A stretch of 64,000 nucleotides of DNA from an uncultured Spirochaetota bacterium (lineage in GTDB: Bacteria > Spirochaetota > Spirochaetia > SZUA-6 > Fen-1364), in assembly GCA_963781885.1 (NCBI GenBank), contig CAWAHW010000007.1:96001-160000 (forward strand). The letters run 5' to 3'. Under the pieces are notes generated by a model. It saw nothing but the letters and a program-made list of their open reading frames with translations. It had not been told where the DNA came from and ran no database searches. The position numbers and the translations under genes were made by a program. Shown here one piece after another: positions 1 through 25,775 of the stretch (position 1 is its first letter; every line of letters begins with the position of its first letter).

Positions 1-8
1 AGGCGAAG

Positions 9-1175
9 ATGGGTCGGCGGCGATTCTTCCTTGCCATAAGCGCCATACCCTTCGCCGTTTTCGCCTTCCTCGTCTTTCTTCCGCTGCGGCACTTCACGGC
101 CAATCCGAGCCTGACCGCGAGCTGGATCAATGTCGCCTGGCTCTCCGTCACGATACTCGTTTTCTACTTCTTCTTCGTGATGTATTTCGCCCCCTACAAC
201 GCCCTCATCAGCGAGTTCGGCCACAATCCCAAGGAAAGGCTGATGATCAGCACGGTCATCGGCGTGACCTGGTCGCTGGGTTTCGCGGTGGGCAATTTCG
301 TCTACGACTTCCAGGGCAGCCTGGAACGGTCGGGCATGGGTCCCGTCAAGGCATTCCAGACCGTGGAGGCGATCTTCGCCATCGCCGCGGCGGTGCTCAT
401 GCTCCTGCCGGTGCTCGTCATCAACGAGCGGCGTTACGCCGCCTATTCCGTCTCCAATGAGACCACGCTCCAGGCGCTGCGCTCCTCGCTGCGCAACAAG
501 AACTTCGTGCGGTTCCTCATCTCGGAATTCCTCTATAATGTCTGCCAGACCATCATCCAGATGGGTATCGTCTACTACGTCGTGACGCTCCTGCGCCTGG
601 AGAAAGAGCTCACCTCCTTCCTTATGATTGTGATGTTCGTCCTGTCGTTCGTCTTCTACTTCCCCATCACGGCGATCACGGTAAAAGTGGAAAAGAAGAG
701 GGTCCTGCTCGTCGGGTTCGGCCTCCTTGCGCTCTTGTTCGCCCTGTTCTCCCTCATGGGCCTTGTCCCCCTGCCGCCGCTCATCTTCGCCTACATCACC
801 GTGGCCGTGGCGGCCATCCCGATCGCGATATTCACCATTGTGCCCAATGCGGTTGTCGCCGACATCGCGGAGGCGGACGGCATCGAGACGGGCAACTTCA
901 AGGCCGGCATGTTCTTCGGCGTGCGCTCCTTTGAAAGCAATCTCGGCGTCTCCGTTGCCAACATCCTCTTCCCGTCGCTCCTCATCCTGGGAATGTCGGT
1001 GGATCACCCCATCGGCATACGCATGAGCGCCATCGTCTCCATCGTCATCTGCGCCGCGGGGCTGTTCGTCTTCTTCCTCTACGACGAGCACGCCGTGCTG
1101 CGCAGCCTTGCGAAGAAGGAGAAGCTGAGCACCGACGAGATGAAGGCGGTTGGCGACGCCCCGGACAAGACGTGA
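9..1175 (+). CDS. MFS/GPH-family sugar transporter (probably 5'-truncated by the window edge)
   Basis: Many TM helices; GPH-like motifs 'PYNALISEF..ERL' and 'ADIAEAD...G.FFG'; overlaps the start of the glycosidase gene. Confidence 0.85.
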   Translation: MGRRRFFLAISAIPFAVFAFLVFLPLRHFTANPSLTASWINVAWLSVTILVFYFFFVMYFAPYNALISEFGHNPKERLMISTVIGVTWSLGFAVGNFVYDFQGSLERSGMGPVKAFQTVEAIFAIAAAVLMLLPVLVINERRYAAYSVSNETTLQALRSSLRNKNFVRFLISEFLYNVCQTIIQMGIVYYVVTLLRLEKELTSFLMIVMFVLSFVFYFPITAITVKVEKKRVLLVGFGLLALLFALFSLMGLVPLPPLIFAYITVAVAAIPIAIFTIVPNAVVADIAEADGIETGNFKAGMFFGVRSFESNLGVSVANILFPSLLILGMSVDHPIGIRMSAIVSIVICAAGLFVFFLYDEHAVLRSLAKKEKLSTDEMKAVGDAPDKT

Positions 1176-19233: not shown

Positions 19234-19773
19234 TCAGGCTCCTGCGGTGCGCCGCACGGCAAAGGCGAGTATCATCTTTAGCATGTAGACGGGCCCGAAC
19301 CACGCGAGAAACGGGGTGGCAAGTCCGATGGGGAGCGCGATCACCGTTCCCACCACGACGAGAGAGACGGCTGTCGCCTGCTGCCTCCCGCCATCGGGCA
19401 TGACGTTCACGAGGCACGCCGCGGCGACGGTGTAGACGTAGAGGAAAGCCCAGTAGCCCGGCCTGCCGCCGAAAAGGAGAAAGAGCAGGAGAGGCTCGAC
19501 GATATGGCCGAATATAAAGAGCCACCGCAGGCCGGCGCGGGAGGCATAATAGCGGTCCGTGCCCGGCGCGAAGCACATCACCGCCCCGCCGCTCACGTCC
19601 GCCGCCACCAGGAAAAGAAGCAGCGCCTTCCACCAGGCAAGGCCTTCCACCCGCGACCACGCGAAGACGAGCGCAAGGACGCCGAAGACGGCACCAACGC
19701 CGTACGCGAGAAGCAGATCGAACGCAGTGGCACTCTCCCCGTGCAGGAGGTGCAGGATTCGCGGAACGCGCAT
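19234..19773 (-). CDS. Hypothetical integral membrane protein
   Basis: Five to six TM helices, 'LHGE', 'D..GG'; upstream TTGACA-N18-TACACT. Confidence 0.75.
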   Translation of the reverse strand: MRVPRILHLLHGESATAFDLLLAYGVGAVFGVLALVFAWSRVEGLAWWKALLLFLVAADVSGGAVMCFAPGTDRYYASRAGLRWLFIFGHIVEPLLLFLLFGGRPGYWAFLYVYTVAAACLVNVMPDGGRQQATAVSLVVVGTVIALPIGLATPFLAWFGPVYMLKMILAFAVRRTAGA

Positions 19774-19860
19774 TTCTCTCCCCGGCAGTGCCACGGTGCT
19801 CCCTTCTGCTGCGAGTGTAGCGGCGTCGGTCCGGAGCTGTCAACGAAGTGTCCGACCTCA

Positions 19861-19889
19861 TTGCCGCCGGTGGCGGCTGGCGGTATACT
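19861..19889 (+). promoter_or_regulatory. sigma70-type promoter for the uORF-secA unit (leaderless spacing)
   Basis: TTGCCG-N17-TATACT, then 6 nt to GTG 19896. Confidence 0.7.
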
Positions 19890-19895
19890 GGTGAG

Positions 19896-20129
19896 GTGAA
19901 GGGCTCGCGCAGGATTTCCGTCATTCTCGTCAACACGATGCTCGTCTTCTGCGCGCTCTTCCTGATCGCCGCCCTGAGCACGGGGGGAATGGCCGTACTG
20001 GCCATCCTTTCCGTGGTCATATCGCTTGCGGCTCTCATCTTTGTCTCTTTCCGCCCCCGCACGCCCGCACTGCTTTCCCTGCGCGCCGCGCATCGGCGCT
20101 TCTCCTCCCGCTCGCCTCCGCGTTTCTAA
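19896..20129 (+). CDS. 77-aa membrane uORF, candidate translation-arrest (secretion monitor) peptide
   Basis: Basic N-terminus, two hydrophobic segments, polar spacer, C-terminal RSPPRF*; ends 53 nt before secA. Confidence 0.7.
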   Translation: MKGSRRISVILVNTMLVFCALFLIAALSTGGMAVLAILSVVISLAALIFVSFRPRTPALLSLRAAHRRFSSRSPPRF

Positions 20130-20182
20130 ACCTTCGCTTCACGCTGCTTTCGCGGCAGTCTGCGCAAAAACACGGAGGGTTT

Positions 20183-22530
20183 ATGAAGAACGGGAAGAAG
20201 CGCGGCGTGACGCCGCGGCAGAAGCTTGCCTACACGCTCAGCACGGCGCGCGGCGTTCCGATCGAATACGACCTGCGGCCGTACCAGGCGTCGGTCCGGG
20301 CCATACGGGCGCTCGCGATGGAGAACGAAAGCGATGCATCGATTGGGAGAAGGGCGGAGGCGCTTCGCGTCCGGCTGCGCGGGGGAGGCGACCCGCAGGC
20401 CGAGCTGCGCGAATGTTTCGCCCTCGCGGCGGAGGCCTGCCGCCGCCGGTTGGGCATGCGGCCGTTCGACGGGCAGCTCGTGGCGGGGATTGCCCTGCAC
20501 GCCGGCAAGCTCGCCCAGATGCCCACGGGGGAGGGCAAGACGCTCGCCGCGGTTTTCCCCGCCTGTCTGGTCGCGCTTGGCGGCCTCCACGTGCACGTCC
20601 TCACCGCGAACGACTATCTGGCGGGAAGGGACGCGCAATGGATGGGGCCGATCTACGGGCTGCTCGGCGTGCGCGTCGCGTCGATCGCCGCGGATTTCTC
20701 GCCCGCTGAAAGGAGGGCGGCATATGGCGCCGAGGTGACCTACCTCACCGCGCGCGAAGCGGGCTTCGACTACCTCCGCGACGGCCTGTGCTTCTCACCG
20801 GCGGACCTTGTGCAAGGGAGCCGGGAACGGGCGATCGTCGACGAGGCGGACTTTCTCCTCATCGACGAGGCGAGGGTCCCGCTCGTGATCGCCGGTGAGG
20901 CGGACCTCGACGTGGCTGCCCCGCTCCGCGCGGATGAGGTGGCCCGCTTCATGCACCGCGGCCGCGACTACGACGTGGACCGGGAAGCCAGGCGCATCGC
21001 GCTTCTCCCCGCGGGGCATCGTGCCGTCGAGGCGGCATTCGGCGTCGCCGGCATCCACGAGGAGACAGGGGCGCTGTGCTTCGCGCGCGTCTACGCGGCG
21101 CTTCATGCCCGCGAGCTCCTGCAGCGCGACGTCGATTACGTCGTCAAGGACGGCGCCATCGGCCTGGTGGACGAGCTCACGGGCAGGATCGCCGATCGGC
21201 GCCAGTGGCCCTGGGGGATCCAGGCAGCGCTGGAGGCGCGCGAGGGCCTTTCTCTCCGGGTCGAAGGCACGGTGTACGGGAGCATCACCATCCAGCACTT
21301 CATGGGGCTCTACGACTCCATCGCCGCCATGACCGCGACCGCCGTTCCCTCTGCCGTCGAGCTTTTCGAGGTCTATGGCCTTTCGACGGTGATCGTGCCG
21401 GCGGAGAAGCCGCTCCGCCGCATCGATGAGCCCGACGTCGTCTGCGCCACGCGCGCCGAAAAGACCGCGGCGCTCGGGCGGGAGATTGTCCGCTCCCACG
21501 CGGAAGGCCGTCCCGTGCTCGTGGGCACCGCATCGGTGCGCGAGTCGCGCGAGCTTGCGGAGCTGCTGCGCGCGGCGGGAGTCGCCTGCGACGTGCTCAA
21601 CGCAGCGGATGACGCGCGCGAGGCGGAGCTGATCGCGCGCGCCGGCGCCGGGGCGCCGTGACGATATCCACGAACATGGCCGGACGCGGAACGGACATCC
21701 GTCTCGACGCGGACCCGGCCGTCCTGGCCGCGGGGGGGCTCCTGGTGATCGGCACGAACCGGCACGAGAGCAGGCGCGTGGACGACCAGCTGCGCGGCCG
21801 GGCGGGCCGTCAGGGCGAGCCGGGCGCGTCGCGGTTCTTCGTGAGCCTCGAGGACCCGCTTTTCGAGCGCTACGGCGTGCGCGATTTCCTGCCGCGCGGC
21901 TGCCCGCTTTCGGACCCGCGCGTGCTGCGCGAGATCGACCGGGCGCAATCGATCATCGAGGCCCGTCACCATTCCATCCGCCGGTTGCTGCGCAAGTATT
22001 CCGCTCTCGTGGAGATGGACAGGCGTCACGTGCGCACGCTCCGCGACGCGGCGGTGCAGGAGGGCGCGCTCCCCGACGGCGTCGAACGGAGCCTGTCGAC
22101 CCCGGATGCCAGGCCTGCGGCGGTGGCGGCGTGGATCGCGCTCCTGGACTCGTTCTGGTCGGATCATCTCCTGCTGGTGGAGGAGGTGCGCGAAGGGATA
22201 CACCTCGAGCGCTACGCGGGACGCGACCCCGGCCTGGAGTATATTCACAGGGTCGGGGGGGCATTCGATCGGGGGCTTGCCGCCGTCGAGGAGAAGCTTT
22301 CCGCGGCGTGCGCCCGACTTGCCGACGATCCAGACGCCCTGGGCTTCCCGAGCATGGGAATCCGCGTTCCTTCGAGCACCTGGACCTACCAGGTCGACGA
22401 CGAGGTGCCCGTCCGGTTTTCCATCGCGGCAGATCTGGGCGGGATGGGCGCCGCACTGGCCGCCGGCCCGATCATGATCATCGAGAGGGTGGCGCGCGCA
22501 ATCAAGGAAGCGCGCGAGCGGCGCCGGTGA
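20183..22530 (+). CDS. secA2: Short accessory SecA (SecA2-like) translocase ATPase, frameshift at ~21650
   Basis: [66 protein letters not shown]; about 780 aa with no C-terminal Zn-binding motif. Confidence 0.88.
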
Positions 22531-22562: not shown

Positions 22563-25500
22563 CTACCCCGATTTTTCCGGCGAGGGTGGAAGCGCCAGGA
22601 CCAGCCGCACCGTTTCGCAGAGGCGCTCGGCCGTGTACGGCTTCATGAGGAGGGCCTTGACCTCCTGCGCCGAGCTGCGGACCCATTCCTCGTCGATGAG
22701 GCCCGACGACAGGATGATGCGGACGTCGGGGTCAATCCGTTTCAGGATGCGGGCGGCTTCGATCCCGCTCATCTCGGGCATCGACATGTCGAGCACCACG
22801 GCACTGATGCTCCCGGCCGCCATCCGAAAGCGCTCGATGCCTTGCTCCGCGCTGACGGCCGTGATCACCCGGTAACCGCCGCGCTCGAGGATGCGCTCCG
22901 CGAGGCGGAGGATGGTCCGCTCGTCGTCGATCACGAGGATTGTCCCCGTGCCCGCGGGAGTCGCCGGCGCCTCCGCCCGTTCCCCCTCGCCGGACGCGTC
23001 CGCCTCGATCTCGGGGAGGTAGATGTCGAAGCTCGTGCCGATCCCGGGCGAGGAGAACACGCTGATGAACCCCCCGAGCTGCCGCACCGTGCCATCGGTC
23101 ATGGAGAGACCCAGGCCCGTGCCCACGTTCGCGCCCTTCGTGGTGAAGAAGGGCTCGAAGATGCGGCGGCGCGTCTCCTCGTTCATCCCGACGCCGGTGT
23201 CGGTGATCGACATGCGCACGTAGCGCGGCGCGCTGCCCGCCTCGGGTACGGTTTTCCGCAGCTCCGCGCTGTTCTCCACGCGCATGCATTCGATGAGGAG
23301 CGTTCCGCCCTGGCGCGCATCAGGCGCCCGCATGATCGTCATCGCGTGCATCGCATTGAGGCAGACGTTCAGGAGCGCCTGTTCCAGGCGCGAGGGCTCG
23401 GCGCGCACCCACATCCGCTCCTCGGTATGGCCGACCTCGATCACGACGCTCTTGGGAAAGCCGTTGCGGCAAAGGGCTTCGACGCTCCGCAGGCACGCAT
23501 TCACGTCCACGGCGGCAAGCTCCATCTCCTGTTTGCGGCCGATCGCCAGGAGCTGCTTGATCAGGGCCGCCGCCCTTGAGGCCGCCTGGAGCGCCGTGTC
23601 CAGGCACTCCATTGCCTCTTCGGTCTGGCCGATGCTCTCCGTCGACAGGATGGCTCGCAGGAGGCTCAGGCTGCCGGTGATACCGACGAGGATGTTGTTG
23701 AAGTCGTGGGCGATGCCGCTCGTGAGGGTGCCGATGGCCTCCATCTTCTGCGCGTGGAAGAGCTTCGCCTCGATGCGCTTGTTCTCCTCCTCCGCCCGCA
23801 CGCCCTCGGTCACGTCCTGCGCAATGGCGGCGAAGCGCTTGCCCCGCGCCGTGCGCACCGCGAAGGACACCTGGCGCGCGATGATGCGGCTCCCGTCGGC
23901 CCGCTCCATCTCGACCTGCGCCGGCGGCGCGGTGCCGGGGCCCTCCCGGCGCATCGTTTCCCAGAGATGCCCGCGGAGCGCCGCCACGCCGGAAGGCGTC
24001 CTGCGCTCGCGCGGCAGCAGCCGCACCATCATGTCCACGTAGCGCGCGCCCACCGCCTCGCCCCGGGGAATCAGCGTCATCTGCTCCGCCGCGGGGTTCC
24101 ATTCGACGATGCGCCCATCCTCGTCGGTCATGGTGACCGCATCCAGCGTCTGTTCGAAGAAAGCGCGCAGGCGTTCCTCGCTGTCGGCCACGGCGCGTTC
24201 GGCGATCCGACGCTCGGTGATGTCGCGCGCGATGCCCTGCGTGCCCACGAACGCCTTTTTTCCCGACTGCGCGTCGGCGACGTAGAGGCCCTCCGCCTGG
24301 ACGAGAAAGACGGGAAGGGGAGAGACGGTAGCGGCGGCAGCCGTTTCTCCCCGCGTCTCCGCGGCGAACAGGCGGAGCTCGAGGGAACGGGTGCTGCGTG
24401 GGCCGGTCCGCCGCTCGTTCAGCCGATAGACCGCGTTGCGGCGATCGTCGGGGTGGACGTAATCGAGGATCGGCCGTCCCAGCATCTGGACCGGGTCGTG
24501 ACCGTAGCGGCGCACCGCGTCGTTCACGAACGTGATGGCCCCTGCGCGGTCCAGGCGATAGATGATGTCGTAGGCGGAGAACAGGATGGAGGCGATCTCC
24601 TTCTGCGACTGCGCGAGCGCGCTGCGCGCCTGCTCCAGCGCCCTGTTCTGCGCCACTGCCTGCGCCGCCTGCTCCCGGATCTTTTCCTCCGCGTCCACGA
24701 GCGCCGTGATGTCCCGGCTCTCCGCGACCATGAACTCCACGCTTCCGCGGGCGCCCCGCACGGGGGACAGGGAGAAGGCGAATGTCCGTATGCTCCCGTC
24801 CCTGGCGGCGTGGCGCGACTGCCGTTGCACCGACTCGCCGTTGCGGACGCGCGCCACGGCCTTTTTAAGGGCCGCCTGCTCCTCGGGAAGGCTGCTCCAC
24901 ACGGGAAGACTCCACGCCGGGGTCCCCTTCATCTCCGCGAGACTGGCCCCCGCGAAACGCAGCGCAGCCGCATTTGCCGAGATGACCCGTCCCTCCGTGT
25001 CCCAGAGCCCGATGAGCTGGACGGTGCTGTCGAAGATGGCGGCGAGCCTCCTCTCGGTCCGGTCGACGCGGTCGGAAAGAGCCGCCGTGTTGGCCATCTC
25101 GTCGGCGGCGCGTACGCCGAGGATCACGAGCGTCGCGGTGAGCGCCGTTTCCCGAAGGGGCAGCGAGCGCAGGTGGAAGGCGATCAGCGCCGCGTCGTGC
25201 ATCGTCGCGAGGAAGAGCACGAGAAAGGCCGCCAGGGCGCGCCAGGCGGGGGCCTTGTCGGCGCGGGAAAGCTGCCGGCAGGCCATCGCGAATAGGGCAA
25301 CGAACATGCCAAGCACGAGCGCGGCGAATGCATACCCGGCGACGCCATAGTCCCCGTCGAGCATCGACAGCCGTTCTCCCCAGGGGAGCTGCAAGGCGAC
25401 GATGCCCCTGACGGTGCGGTAGACGAGCGAAGGGGAGATGAGCTGCCCGATGCCGAGCGCGGTGAAGCACGCGCCGAATGGCAGGAGAAGACGCGGGAGG

Positions 25501-25775
25501 CGGATCCTCGTGGGTAGCGCAAAAAGCCAGAGCAGGCAGAGGCAGAAACCCTCGGTCGCGAACATCTGCAGCCGGCCGAGGGCGAGAGAGCCGGCGGCGC
25601 TCGCGGCCTGGTAGAGCGCGATGCTGAATATAATGGAGGCAACGAGCAGGAACGACGCAAGGGCGAGCGCGCCGGAATCAGCCCTGCGCGCCCGCAATGC
25701 GAGCTGCGCCTGATAGACCCCTGAGATGAAGCTGATGCCCGCCAGGGCGCTGAGATACATGAGAAAGGGAGACAT
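22563..25775 (-). CDS. Membrane hybrid histidine kinase (multi-TM sensor, three PAS, HisKA, HATPase, REC)
   Basis: About 7 N-terminal TM helices, PAS/PAC ends (RDIT, QDVT), GIAHDFNN, GTGLGL and a receiver domain. Confidence 0.92.
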   Translation of the reverse strand: MSPFLMYLSALAGISFISGVYQAQLALRARRADSGALALASFLLVASIIFSIALYQAASAAGSLALGRLQMFATEGFCLCLLWLFALPTRIRLPRLLLPFGACFTALGIGQLISPSLVYRTVRGIVALQLPWGERLSMLDGDYGVAGYAFAALVLGMFVALFAMACRQLSRADKAPAWRALAAFLVLFLATMHDAALIAFHLRSLPLRETALTATLVILGVRAADEMANTAALSDRVDRTERRLAAIFDSTVQLIGLWDTEGRVISANAAALRFAGASLAEMKGTPAWSLPVWSSLPEEQAALKKAVARVRNGESVQRQSRHAARDGSIRTFAFSLSPVRGARGSVEFMVAESRDITALVDAEEKIREQAAQAVAQNRALEQARSALAQSQKEIASILFSAYDIIYRLDRAGAITFVNDAVRRYGHDPVQMLGRPILDYVHPDDRRNAVYRLNERRTGPRSTRSLELRLFAAETRGETAAAATVSPLPVFLVQAEGLYVADAQSGKKAFVGTQGIARDITERRIAERAVADSEERLRAFFEQTLDAVTMTDEDGRIVEWNPAAEQMTLIPRGEAVGARYVDMMVRLLPRERRTPSGVAALRGHLWETMRREGPGTAPPAQVEMERADGSRIIARQVSFAVRTARGKRFAAIAQDVTEGVRAEEENKRIEAKLFHAQKMEAIGTLTSGIAHDFNNILVGITGSLSLLRAILSTESIGQTEEAMECLDTALQAASRAAALIKQLLAIGRKQEMELAAVDVNACLRSVEALCRNGFPKSVVIEVGHTEERMWVRAEPSRLEQALLNVCLNAMHAMTIMRAPDARQGGTLLIECMRVENSAELRKTVPEAGSAPRYVRMSITDTGVGMNEETRRRIFEPFFTTKGANVGTGLGLSMTDGTVRQLGGFISVFSSPGIGTSFDIYLPEIEADASGEGERAEAPATPAGTGTILVIDDERTILRLAERILERGGYRVITAVSAEQGIERFRMAAGSISAVVLDMSMPEMSGIEAARILKRIDPDVRIILSSGLIDEEWVRSSAQEVKALLMKPYTAERLCETVRLVLALPPSPEKSG

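What the first reader, a model, noticed from the sequence alone, without database searches (positions are those of the whole stretch)
19861..20185. Candidate new secretion-monitoring arrest peptide (RSPP) controlling an accessory secA
Seen: the promoter TTGCCG-N17-TATACT lies 6 nt before GTG 19896, which opens a 77-aa ORF with a basic N-terminus, two hydrophobic segments, a ~20-aa spacer and the end ..FSS-RSPP-RF* (RSPP codons 20109-20120). The Pro-Pro-Arg-Phe codons CCTCCGCGTTT (20115-20125) are complementary at 10/11 positions to AAACACGGAGG (20168-20178), which covers the secA SD. TAAACCTTC (20127-20135) can alternatively pair with GAGGGTTTA (20175-20183). Established: SecM (RAGP, upstream of secA) and ApdA/ApdP (RAPP, upstream of secDF) stall ribosomes, are released by pulling on an N-terminal localisation signal, and stalling exposes the downstream SD. 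Inference: this is an unrelated two-TM monitor with an RSPP variant that induces a SecA paralog when membrane insertion or export is slow. Both anti-SD arms would lie under or next to a ribosome stalled at the Pro codons.
Basis: partly seen in the sequence, partly recalled or inferred. Interest (0 to 1): 0.88.

Follow-up and report, generated by a model that had tools for sequence, protein, structure and literature searches.

The report
RAPP-type arrest uORF before accessory SecA
A short membrane-peptide gene ending in Arg-Ser-Pro-Pro sits just before a second SecA gene in a spirochaete genome and looks like a new group of the known ribosome-stalling "secretion monitor" peptides.

Summary
The 77-codon uORF (19896-20129) ends RSPPRF*. 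Its Pro-Pro codons pair with the SD of a SecA paralog (ATG 20183). A promoter-like site ends 6 nt before the GTG.

Comparison supports the arrest-peptide reading. In the window's order, 13 of 92 genomes carry this SecA paralog, and 13 of 13 have the uORF directly upstream. I found 21 such loci: 18 labelled Spirochaetota and 3 labelled otherwise. Only M1, R72, P74 and P75 are invariant. The motif is RAPP in 11, RSPP in 6 and RGPP in 4, and it lies 1-5 codons before the stop. The two-segment hydrophobic hairpin, the near-constant length and the leaderless promoter geometry are also conserved. Codon choice favours pairing with the SD: the first Pro codon is CCT in 11 of 18 loci against 2.8 expected.

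This is not a new kind of system. RAPP-like uORFs upstream of secA and secDF are published as the "RQH family" (Fujiwara 2024), with RSPP among the search motifs. What appears new is the spirochaete group, the accessory-SecA target, the leaderless start, and the arrest codons acting as anti-SD.

Stalling and force-dependent release are inferred, not shown. This genome's SecA paralog carries a frameshift.

The parts
19861..19889 (+). sigma-70-like promoter TTGCCG-N17-TATACT. The -10 hexamer ends 6 nt before the uORF start, which implies a leaderless transcript.
   Evidence: The same geometry (TANNNT ending 5-8 nt before the assigned start) is seen in 16 of 19 loci, and the full TTGNNN-16..18-TANNNT-5..8 pattern in 12 of 19. 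Among 5,164 control NTG triplets the rates are 3.0% and 0.43%.
19896..20129 (+). uORF of 77 codons (GTG start, TAA stop): MKGSRR, two hydrophobic segments, a basic spacer, then RSPPRF
   Evidence: No Pfam or NCBIfam family. Aligned with 13 orthologs in A1.
19917..19982 (+). first hydrophobic segment (about residues 8-29), preceded by 3 Lys/Arg
   Evidence: Hydropathy script. Boundaries are approximate.
19989..20048 (+). second hydrophobic segment (about residues 32-51). It ends about 23 residues before the predicted P-site Pro.
   Evidence: Boundaries are approximate.
20109..20120 (+). R72-S73-P74-P75 codons CGC TCG CCT CCG. Predicted stall with CCT (20115-20117) in the P site and CCG (20118-20120) in the A site.
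   Evidence: Sequence. R72, P74 and P75 are invariant in A1. The P/A-site assignment is by analogy with ApdA/ApdP structures (PMC10951233, passages read), not measured.
20115..20135 (+). two alternative anti-SD arms: CCTCCGCGTTT (20115-20125) and TAAACCTTC (20127-20135). Both lie within or at the edge of a ribosome stalled at 20115.
   Evidence: The mean probability that an SD nucleotide pairs with this region is 0.78. None of 150 synonymous recodings reached that value.
20174..20179 (+). Shine-Dalgarno GGAGGG of the SecA paralog
   Evidence: It lies 3 nt before ATG 20183.
20183..21661 (+). SecA paralog, N-terminal 492 codons (DEAD motor, preprotein cross-linking domain, start of the second nucleotide-binding domain)
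   Evidence: Pfam. NCBIfam scores are below every cut-off. 81-45% identical orthologs were found in 12 other genomes of the order.
21647..21661 (+). frameshift site. The conserved [15 protein letters not shown] motif continues in another frame after a GGGG run.
   Evidence: Orthologs have one continuous frame of about 800 aa.
21658..22530 (+). SecA paralog, C-terminal 290 codons in the shifted frame
   Evidence: Pfam P-loop_SecA and SecA_SW. 75% identical to the contiguous C-terminal part of the ortholog in L140.

Best explanation
This is a RAPP-type ribosome-arrest ("monitoring substrate") uORF that controls translation of an accessory SecA paralog.

Proposed sequence of events:
1. Transcription starts at or next to GTG 19896, so the mRNA is leaderless.
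2. The ribosome makes a 77-residue peptide with a basic N-terminus and a tight N-in/C-in hydrophobic hairpin.
3. The ribosome reaches R72-S73-P74 with Pro75-tRNA in the A site, and peptide-bond formation stalls, as in ApdA/ApdP.
4. At that point about 41-44 residues separate the hairpin turn from the peptidyl-transferase centre. The first hydrophobic segment is then outside the ribosome while the second is still in the tunnel.
5. If the first segment is engaged promptly by the membrane-insertion machinery, the pulling force releases the stall. The ribosome terminates 2 codons later. The Pro-Pro codons (CCUCC, an anti-SD-like sequence) and the following bases then pair with the GGAGGG SD of the paralog and keep it off.
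6. If insertion is slow, the stalled ribosome covers 20115-20135, the SD stays free and the SecA paralog is translated.

Shown here: conservation of the uORF, motif, geometry and promoter; strict linkage to the paralog; predicted SD pairing with codon-level support.

Inferred: the stall itself, its release by membrane insertion, and the induction.
For: Linkage:
- In the order (92 genomes) the paralog is present in 13.
- The uORF lies directly upstream in 13 of 13. Ten were found by a profile of A1 (all 10 strong hits, E <= 2e-8, lie next to the paralog). Three were found by reading the upstream DNA.
- Flanking genes are not conserved, so promoter, uORF and secA travel as a unit.

Peptide conservation:
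- Among 14 aligned uORFs with 16-74% identity, only M1, R72, P74 and P75 are invariant.
- The motif is RAPP in 11, RSPP in 6 and RGPP in 4 of 21 loci, and lies 1-5 codons before the stop.
- Arg is encoded by CGC, CGT, CGG, AGA and AGG, and Pro by CCT, CCC and CCG. Selection is therefore on the residues.

Geometry:
- The P-site Pro is residue 73-75 in 12 of 20 complete uORFs.
- The distance from the hairpin turn to that Pro is 32-45 residues (median 41).
- The distance from the end of the second segment to that Pro is 13-34 residues (median 21.5).

RNA:
- The mean probability that SD nucleotides pair with the region from the R codon to 12 nt past the stop is at least 0.35 in 16 of 18 loci.
- That probability exceeds the mean of 150 synonymous recodings in 16 of 18 loci. 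It is reached by 10 or fewer recodings in 9 of 18.
- The first Pro codon is CCT in 11 of 18 loci, against 2.8 expected from Pro codon usage of the adjacent secA gene.
- The best 12-nt partner of the SD anywhere in the uORF plus spacer overlaps the stall footprint in 11 of 21 loci. About 16% of the windows overlap that footprint.

Specificity: this is the only one of 48,484 open frames in the genome that combines R[AGS]PP near the end with a hydrophobic segment.

Established knowledge:
- RSPP is partly permissive and under-represented in proteomes (PMC12992588, passages).
- An RGPP uORF induces secDF2 by opening an SD-masking stem-loop (PMC10987492, section 11).
Against: - No experiment or RNA data exist. 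No RNA run was listed for this sequence.
- The fold energy of 20095-20200 is ordinary (z = -0.59).
- In 10 of 21 loci the strongest SD partner lies elsewhere in the uORF. In 2 of 18 loci (L049, L062) the SD is predicted to pair upstream of the motif rather than with it.
- The second hydrophobic segment ends only 13-34 residues from the stall site. That is less than the 30-residue spacer used as a criterion in the published screens, so only the first segment can act as the exposed signal.
- An N-in/C-in hairpin with a 3-6-residue loop is the topology the literature associates with YidC-type monitors (PMC10987492, Methods passage). It is not the topology of SecA-dependent substrates, so the feedback logic to a SecA paralog is unclear.
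- RSPP is reported as weaker than RAPP or RGPP.
- One spirochaete paralog locus (L055) lacks the uORF.
- In this genome the paralog is frameshifted, so the module may be inactive here.
- Related genomes are not independent, so the counts overstate statistical weight.
- The uORF starts were chosen partly with the -10 element in view, which inflates the count somewhat.
Confidence: 0.75

Rival explanations
1. The uORF does stall ribosomes at R-x-P-P, but the stall does not report membrane insertion. It could be a constitutive or EF-P/prolyl-tRNA-sensitive pause that opens the SD hairpin each time the uORF is translated. In that case expression of the paralog simply follows uORF translation or Pro-Pro decoding capacity.
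For: Pro-Pro motifs depend on translation factors in general. Only 1-5 codons follow the motif, so even an unstalled terminating ribosome sits on the anti-SD arm. The second hydrophobic segment is still inside the tunnel at the stall.
Against: The hydrophobic hairpin, the basic N-terminus and a near-constant distance from the N-terminus to the motif are conserved at 16-74% sequence identity. A pure pause element would not need these features. RAPP and RGPP arrests are reported as refractory to EF-P (PMC12992588, abstract).
Confidence: 0.13
2. The uORF encodes a stable small membrane protein that works with the SecA paralog, for example as a membrane anchor or receptor. Its conserved C-terminal R-x-P-P would then be a binding motif, and there would be no arrest-based regulation.
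For: Co-occurrence with the paralog is strict (13 of 13). The hairpin topology is typical of small membrane proteins.
Against: Outside the four invariant residues the sequence is free to vary. The invariant motif is exactly the published arrest module. Codon choice at the motif favours pairing with the downstream SD, which a protein-binding motif would not require. The two genes are separated by 34-145 nt rather than being coupled.
Confidence: 0.08
3. In this particular genome the module is a relic. The SecA paralog is a pseudogene and the uORF no longer regulates anything.
For: There is a 1-nt frameshift at 21647-21661. Seven long housekeeping genes of the same assembly have unbroken frames of 903-1165 codons, so a high indel error rate is unlikely.
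Against: There is only one lesion, the gene is otherwise 81% identical to an intact ortholog, and the lesion sits at a homopolymer. The public contigs laid on the region did not cover the site with this organism's sequence, so an assembly error is not excluded. This rival concerns activity here, not the nature of the element. It can be true together with the best explanation, so its figure is not part of the same sum.
Confidence: 0.5

Closest known systems
RQH family of RAPP-like arrest peptides upstream of secA (uA_RQH_*) and secDF (uDF_RQH_*), Fujiwara et al. 2024, PMC10987492
   Same: A small uORF of unknown function lies directly upstream of a sec gene. It has an N-terminal membrane or secretion signal and a C-terminal R/Q/H-x-P-P motif that is the only conserved sequence. 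For one member an SD-masking stem-loop has been shown experimentally to be opened by the stalled ribosome (section 11). RSPP was among their query motifs.
   Different: The main text names secA-linked groups in Pseudomonadales, Myxococcales, Bacteroidales, Desulfurobacteriales and Fimbriimonadales. It contains no occurrence of 'spirochaet', 'treponema' or 'leaderless'. The supplements, which list all groups and orphan uORFs, were closed, so prior listing cannot be excluded. Here the target is a divergent SecA paralog in genomes that also have canonical secA. The mRNA appears leaderless. The signal is a two-segment hairpin with a short, nearly fixed distance to the stall site. The Pro-Pro codons themselves form the anti-SD.
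ApdA / ApdP (RAPP, upstream of secDF; Sakiyama et al. 2021, PMC7897499; structures in Morici et al. 2024, PMC10951233)
   Same: The arrest module is the same: R-A-P-P close to the C-terminus. Eleven of the 21 loci carry exactly RAPP. [quoted passage not shown]
   Different: The downstream gene differs (a secA paralog rather than secDF), as do the phyla. For ApcA, ApdA and ApdP the authors reported that structure prediction did not reveal SD-sequestering hairpins. Here such pairing is predicted in most loci. I did not fetch ApdA or ApdP sequences, so lack of homology beyond the motif is assumed from the published statement that these peptides share no overall similarity.
SecM-secA of Enterobacterales
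   Same: The regulatory logic is the same. [quoted passage not shown] The stalled ribosome opens a hairpin that hides the secA SD, and release occurs by engagement of the nascent chain with the localisation machinery.
   Different: SecM is 170 residues long, has a cleavable signal peptide, carries FxxxxWIxxxxGIRAGP, has a long spacer (medians 71 or 131 residues) and controls the housekeeping SecA. Here the peptide is 77 residues long, has a membrane hairpin, carries R[AGS]PP, has a spacer of about 41 residues and controls an accessory SecA.
MifM / ApcA / uC_KYxIW (YidC monitors)
   Same: These have a short spacer between the membrane segment and the stall site (MifM median 54). N-in/C-in double-TM or N-out single-TM topology with a small extracytoplasmic part is described for this group.
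   Different: Those regulate yidC paralogs. This one regulates a SecA paralog.
SecA2 of Actinomycetota and Bacillota (TIGR04221, TIGR03714, TIGR04397, NF012136)
   Same: The target is a second, shorter SecA (about 800 aa). It aligns end to end with the mycobacterial SecA2 model (residues 34-745 to positions 17-744 of 762). Its best solved relatives are Clostridioides SecA2 chains. The genome has a single SecY.
   Different: It scores below the curated cut-off of every SecA and SecA2 model: 645.9 against 725 for TIGR04221, and 660.9 against 814 for SecA. It forms its own clade with copies from Acidobacteriota, Planctomycetota, Bacillota and others. My two literature searches on this turned up no arrest-peptide control of a SecA2.

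Membership tests
Sec/YidC monitoring-substrate uORFs, RQH (RAPP-like) class, criteria of Fujiwara 2024 | small uORF with no annotated function directly upstream of secA, secDF or yidC | tested here: met
   The uORF has 77 codons and ends 53 nt before the SecA-paralog ATG. It has no Pfam or NCBIfam hit.
Sec/YidC monitoring-substrate uORFs, RQH (RAPP-like) class, criteria of Fujiwara 2024 | N-terminal secretion signal or transmembrane segment | tested here: met
   There are two hydropathy peaks of 2.9-3.0 (13-residue window) after 3 Lys/Arg. The same pattern is seen in all 21 uORFs. This is a hydropathy scale only; no dedicated topology predictor was available.
Sec/YidC monitoring-substrate uORFs, RQH (RAPP-like) class, criteria of Fujiwara 2024 | C-terminal R/Q/H-x-P-P-like sequence conserved among homologs | tested here: met
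   R72, P74 and P75 are invariant in 14 aligned sequences. R[AGS]PP is present in 21 of 21 uORFs.
Sec/YidC monitoring-substrate uORFs, RQH (RAPP-like) class, criteria of Fujiwara 2024 | spacer of more than 30 residues between the localisation signal and the conserved C-terminal sequence | tested here: inconclusive
   Met for the first hydrophobic segment (turn to P-site Pro 32-45 residues, median 41). Mostly not met for the second (13-34 residues, median 21.5).
Sec/YidC monitoring-substrate uORFs, RQH (RAPP-like) class, criteria of Fujiwara 2024 | ribosome stalls at the motif (peptidyl-tRNA product, toeprint, loss on Arg or Pro substitution) | not testable with these tools
   Inferred from published behaviour of RAPP, RGPP and RSPP.
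Sec/YidC monitoring-substrate uORFs, RQH (RAPP-like) class, criteria of Fujiwara 2024 | arrest released by engagement with the localisation machinery | not testable with these tools
   No data.
Sec/YidC monitoring-substrate uORFs, RQH (RAPP-like) class, criteria of Fujiwara 2024 | stalled ribosome unmasks the SD of the downstream gene | tested here: inconclusive
   This is prediction only. The pairing probability is at least 0.35 in 16 of 18 loci. Codon-level support is found in 9-16 of 18. The best SD partner overlaps the footprint in 11 of 21. The fold z-score of the own locus is -0.59.
SecM | arrest sequence FxxxxWIxxxxGIRAGP and an N-terminal cleavable signal peptide | tested here: not met
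   The peptide ends ..AAHRRFSSRSPPRF. It has no RAGP and no W-I spacing, and it has two hydrophobic segments rather than a signal peptide.
Accessory SecA2 (NCBIfam TIGR04221, TIGR03714, TIGR04397, NF012136) - for the downstream gene | score above the curated equivalog cut-off | tested here: not met
   For the intact ortholog from L140, scores against cut-offs are 645.9 against 725, 502.9 against 930, 585.4 against 1085 and 438.6 against 1100. It is also below the SecA models: 660.9 against 814 and 633.7 against 800.
SecA superfamily - for the downstream gene | SecA DEAD motor, preprotein cross-linking domain, second nucleotide-binding domain and scaffold or wing domain | tested here: met
   Pfam SecA_DEAD 3e-82, SecA_PP_bind 2e-22, P-loop_SecA and SecA_SW. 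In this genome the gene is split by a frameshift.

The most novel reading that the evidence does not exclude
A widely scattered, uncharacterised clade of short accessory SecA proteins in diderm and monoderm bacteria is, in spirochaetes and a few other lineages, switched on by a leaderless, fixed-length (about 77-residue) hairpin peptide. The geometry of that peptide is that of a YidC/SRP-type insertion sensor rather than a secretion sensor. The paralog would then be a stress back-up for membrane-protein insertion. The Pro-Pro arrest codons (CCUCC) would double as the anti-Shine-Dalgarno, so that one 6-nt element encodes both the stall and the switch.
Probability: 0.3. Interest if true: 0.6.

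Novelty: new member of a known kind. Interest (0 to 1): 0.5.

Why it matters
If the stall is confirmed, this would extend RAPP-type monitoring peptides to Spirochaetota and, so far as my literature searches show, to the control of an accessory SecA. It would give a first handle on when this uncharacterised SecA clade is needed.

The module is compact: promoter, leaderless 77-codon uORF, a 34-145-nt spacer and the SD. It occurs with natural RAPP, RGPP and RSPP variants over a G+C range of 37-72%. That makes it a convenient natural series for testing three things: how the middle residue tunes arrest strength, how a membrane hairpin at a fixed distance releases it, and whether arrest codons can themselves serve as the anti-SD.

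It does not change the known picture of how such monitors work.

Tried and rejected
- **Fold of 20095-20200 alone.** The pairing is present, but the energy is not distinguishable from shuffles, so I did not use it as evidence by itself.
- **Phylum-wide profile search with A1 (401 genomes).** Only the own genome gave a strong hit. The other 13 hits (E = 4e-4 to 9e-3) lie in long open frames or contain stops, and I treated them as hydrophobic noise without further checking.
- **Loose IUPAC pattern for R-x-P-P plus stop in the own genome.** It gave 252 matches against 78 for the reversed control and was uninformative. I replaced it with the frame-aware scan.
- **Upstream regions of 36 paralog-clade loci outside the uORF-bearing set.** No R-x-P-P uORF was found. 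Other upstream ORFs are recorded under Noticed in passing.
- **Sequencing runs.** No RNA holder was listed. One DNA run held 0.22 of the sampled words.
- **Laying three runs.** The own-organism contigs covered 20776-20926, 21272-21508 and 22195-22527 without differences, but not the uORF and not the frameshift site. There is therefore no evidence on expression or on the frameshift.
- **ESM Atlas search with the uORF.** The best scores were 0.85 to unnamed clusters, below the level at which a hit means anything.
- **Synteny test.** Neighbours of the module are not conserved, so no partner genes could be proposed.
- **Second SecY.** Only one SecY was found, so a SecA2-SecY2 type system is rejected for this genome.
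- **Supplementary data.** The supplements of PMC10987492 and the source data of PMC12992588 were closed. They may already list these spirochaete uORFs.
- **Not attempted.** I did not run structure prediction or complex prediction, because no binding claim is made.


Full report
**1. The observation**

- TTGCCG (19861-19866), 17 nt, TATACT (19884-19889), 6 nt, then GTG 19896.
- The frame from 19896 encodes 77 residues, MKGSRR...FSSRSPPRF, and stops at TAA 20127-20129.
- RSPP is CGC TCG CCT CCG at 20109-20120.
- CCTCCGCGTTT (20115-20125) is complementary to AAACACGGAGG (20168-20178) at 10 of 11 positions.
- TAAACCTTC (20127-20135) can pair with GAGGGTTTA (20175-20183) with one U-G pair.
- GGAGGG (20174-20179) precedes ATG 20183.

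The promoter scan lists the site independently: 2 sites found in 4 kb against 0.2 expected. The second site points the other way, towards the divergent gene.

The minimum-free-energy fold of 20095-20200 contains the CCUCCG/CGGAGG helix. Its energy is ordinary for this composition (z = -0.59), so the hairpin by itself is not evidence.

In the whole genome, 139 of 48,484 open frames of at least 50 codons have R[AGS]PP in their last 10 residues. Only this one also has a strongly hydrophobic segment upstream.

**2. The downstream gene**

ORF 20183-21661 has the SecA DEAD motor, the preprotein cross-linking domain and the start of the second nucleotide-binding domain. ORF 21658-22530 has the rest of that domain and part of the scaffold/wing domain.

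The two ORFs overlap at a GGGG run. There the conserved [15 protein letters not shown] motif continues in another frame. The gene therefore carries a 1-nt frameshift in this assembly.

Orthologs have one frame of about 800 codons. Seven long housekeeping genes of the same assembly are unbroken, so a generally high indel error rate is unlikely. The public contigs I could lay on the region did not cover the site, so the question stays open.

The genome also has a canonical secA on another contig and a single secY.

An intact ortholog (798 aa) scores below the curated cut-off of every NCBIfam SecA and SecA2 model. It aligns end to end with the mycobacterial SecA2 model, and its best solved relatives are Clostridioides SecA2 chains. 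BLASTP aligns only its residues 27-635 with the canonical SecA of the same genome, at 39% identity.

I built a FastTree tree of 106 SecA N-terminal regions. It used all loci L001-L112 except six duplicates (L002, L004-L008).
- The paralogs form a clade apart from the canonical SecAs (local support 0.999 when L032 is included).
- Inside it is a spirochaete sub-clade of 16 tips (support 0.998).
- That sub-clade is sister to an Acidobacteriota sub-clade of 15 tips (support 0.836).
- Further members come from Planctomycetota, Paenibacillaceae, Sporomusa and others.
- The root was set on the own canonical SecA. Support is FastTree's local measure only.

**3. The organism**

Record titles of the closest loci name Spirochaetaceae, Spirochaetia, Spirochaetota and Treponemataceae metagenome-assembled genomes. 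The one run that held part of the stretch is labelled freshwater sediment metagenome, and the two other runs of its study are labelled soil metagenome.

**4. Conservation of the uORF**

All eight orthologous loci from the first 41 relatives have an upstream ORF with two hydrophobic segments. These ORFs end RSPPRF, RAPPRF, RAPPLC, RAPPLA, RAPPVF, RAPPLS, RGPPLHA and RGPPLNS.

Among the 80 loci returned from the species-representative genomes, 17 have such a uORF. These are 14 with spirochaete labels, 2 labelled Aminicenantes and 1 labelled Clostridia. Five of them duplicate earlier loci. One spirochaete paralog locus (L055) lacks the uORF.

Within the window's order, 92 genomes were searched.
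- The paralog is present in 13.
- A profile of the aligned uORFs finds 10 strong hits, all adjacent to the paralog.
- The other three paralog loci also carry the uORF when read directly: RAPPLA, RSPPFFS and RSPPLS.
- That makes 13 of 13.

The phylum-wide sample of 401 genomes gave no further convincing hit. The module is therefore patchy, for example present in 3 of 21 genomes of the own genus. Flanking genes are not conserved, so promoter, uORF and paralog behave as a self-contained unit.

In the alignment of 14 spirochaete uORFs, identity to the own sequence is 16-74%. The only invariant columns are M1, R72, P74 and P75.

Over all 21 distinct loci the motif is RAPP in 11, RSPP in 6 and RGPP in 4, and 1-5 codons follow it. 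Arg and Pro are encoded by several different codons. The constraint is therefore on the residues.

Eight of 17 complete uORFs are exactly 77 residues long.

**5. Geometry (simple hydropathy scale)**

- Every uORF has two hydrophobic peaks separated by a short turn rich in Gly, Pro or Ser.
- One to seven Lys/Arg precede the first peak in the 20 complete uORFs. The spacer after the second peak is basic or proline-rich. This fits an N-in/C-in hairpin.
- The predicted P-site Pro is residue 73-75 in 12 of 20 complete uORFs.
- The turn lies 32-45 residues (median 41) from that Pro.
- The end of the second segment lies 13-34 residues (median 21.5) from it.

With an exit tunnel that holds roughly 30-40 residues (recalled general knowledge), the first segment would be just outside the ribosome at the stall and the second would still be inside.

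[quoted passage not shown] They do not resemble the long, variable spacers of SecA-linked monitors.

**6. Promoter and leaderless start**

- A TANNNT hexamer ends 5-8 nt before the assigned start codon in 16 of 19 loci.
- The full TTGNNN-16..18-TANNNT-5..8 arrangement is present in 12 of 19, mostly as TTGCCN.
- The rates among all 5,164 NTG triplets of the same loci are 3.0% and 0.43%.

There is a caveat. Where two or three start codons preceded the first hydrophobic segment, I chose the one with the hexamer. The count is therefore somewhat favoured, but with at most three candidates and a 3% background the bias is small.

No SD-like sequence at a workable distance precedes GTG 19896. The transcript is therefore most likely leaderless. 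The word "leaderless" does not occur in the main texts of the three arrest-peptide screens I read.

**7. RNA switch**

I folded each locus from 30 nt before the R codon to 12 nt past the secA start.
- The mean probability that an SD-region nucleotide pairs with the stretch from the R codon to 12 nt past the uORF stop is at least 0.35 in 16 of 18 loci (0.78 in the own locus).
- In L049 and L062 the SD instead pairs with a pyrimidine-rich stretch further upstream.

I then recoded the motif and tail with synonymous codons drawn from the usage of the adjacent secA gene (150 draws per locus).
- The observed value is above the recoded mean in 16 of 18 loci and equal in 2.
- It is reached by 10 or fewer draws in 9 of 18, and by none of 150 in the own locus.

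The first Pro codon is CCT in 11 of 18 loci, against 2.8 expected. In the own secA paralog CCT is not used at all among the Pro codons of the 492-codon part. CCT followed by CCN spells CCUCC, the complement of a GGAGG SD.

As an independent check, I looked for the best 12-nt duplex partner of the SD segment anywhere between the uORF start and the SD. It overlaps the -12..+17 footprint of a ribosome with the first Pro codon in its P site in 11 of 21 loci. About one window in six overlaps that footprint. In the other 10 loci a partner elsewhere is 0.2-5.1 kcal/mol better.

The pairing is thus a strong tendency with codon-level support. It is not a universal rule, and related genomes are not independent samples.

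**8. What is known**

I read the following.
- PMC10987492 (Fujiwara et al. 2024): outline, sections 6, 11 and 12, and passages from the Introduction, Results, Discussion and Methods.
- PMC7897499 (Sakiyama et al. 2021): passages.
- PMC10951233 (Morici et al. 2024): passages.
- PMC12992588 (Fujiwara et al. 2025): passages.

The relevant findings are these.
- RAPP-like uORFs upstream of secA (eight order-level groups) and secDF (eleven) form the "RQH family", found in nine phyla, with additional orphan uORFs.
- RSPP was one of the query motifs.
- An RGPP member induces secDF2 by opening an SD-masking stem-loop.
[quoted passage not shown] - RSPP is partly permissive, arises in random screens and is under-represented in proteomes.
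- secA and secD are enriched downstream of small RAPP/RGPP ORFs.
- For ApcA, ApdA and ApdP no SD-sequestering hairpin was predicted.

The main text of the 2024 screen contains no occurrence of spirochaet-, treponema-, acidobacteriota or aminicenan-. Its supplements, which hold the full lists, were closed.

Two literature searches found no arrest-peptide control of a SecA2-type paralog and no leaderless monitoring substrate. One used arrest peptide/RAPP/secA/ApdA and one used arrest peptide/leaderless/monitoring substrate. A third search, SecA2/spirochet/paralog, found nothing on spirochaete SecA paralogs among the 12 listed papers.

**9. Verdict**

The feature is real and conserved. It is best explained as a RAPP-type monitoring uORF that gates an accessory SecA through SD masking.

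It is a new group of a known kind, not a new kind. RSPP is a recurrent minority variant within it.

The points that go beyond the published descriptions I could read are:
- the spirochaete distribution;
- the accessory-SecA target;
- the conserved leaderless promoter geometry;
- the fixed 77-residue hairpin design;
- the arrest codons serving as the anti-SD.

Stalling, force-dependent release and induction remain to be shown. In this genome the target gene is frameshifted.

Noticed in passing
window 21647-21661: The SecA paralog is split by a 1-nt frameshift at a GGGG run. Orthologs are intact, and seven long housekeeping genes of the assembly are unbroken. It is either a recent pseudogene or a local assembly error.
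   Followed up: partly
window 19814-19843 (minus strand) and 19234-19794 (minus strand): A second promoter-like site (TTGACA-18-TACACT) points away from the uORF, towards a 186-residue hydrophobic ORF with no Pfam or NCBIfam family. The 100-nt gap thus seems to hold two divergent promoters.
   Followed up: no
L044, L045, L052, L074 (Acidobacteriota-labelled loci), just upstream of the SecA-paralog start: A 72-112-residue ORF with a heavy-metal-associated-type MTCGGC motif ends within -8 to +10 nt of the paralog's start. In that lineage the same SecA clade seems to be coupled to a metal-binding small protein instead of an R-x-P-P uORF.
   Followed up: no
L056 and L068 (Bacillota-labelled MAG loci), 136 and 183 nt upstream of the SecA paralog: Very hydrophobic 107- and 120-residue upstream ORFs share similar C-terminal ends without R-x-P-P. 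They may be a different kind of upstream membrane ORF.
   Followed up: no
G015:C3, G014:C16, G012:C22, G008:C46, G026:C181; L032: A third, shorter SecA-like class (open frames about 680-790 aa, 37-40% identical) occurs in several genomes of the same genus and order. L032 sits on a very long branch at the base of the paralog clade.
   Followed up: partly
L055 (Treponemataceae-labelled locus): This is the only spirochaete paralog locus without the hairpin/R-x-P-P uORF. A 163-residue non-hydrophobic ORF ends 40 nt upstream instead.
   Followed up: partly
L050:60-110: The uORF start region of this Aminicenantes-labelled locus contains a run of 10 T. An ATG 4 nt upstream is in another frame, so an indel in the run may hide the true start.
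   Followed up: no
window 22563-25775 (minus strand): A 1070-residue hybrid sensor kinase (several PAS domains, HisKA, HATPase, receiver) converges on the end of the SecA paralog. It is not conserved next to the module in other genomes.
   Followed up: partly
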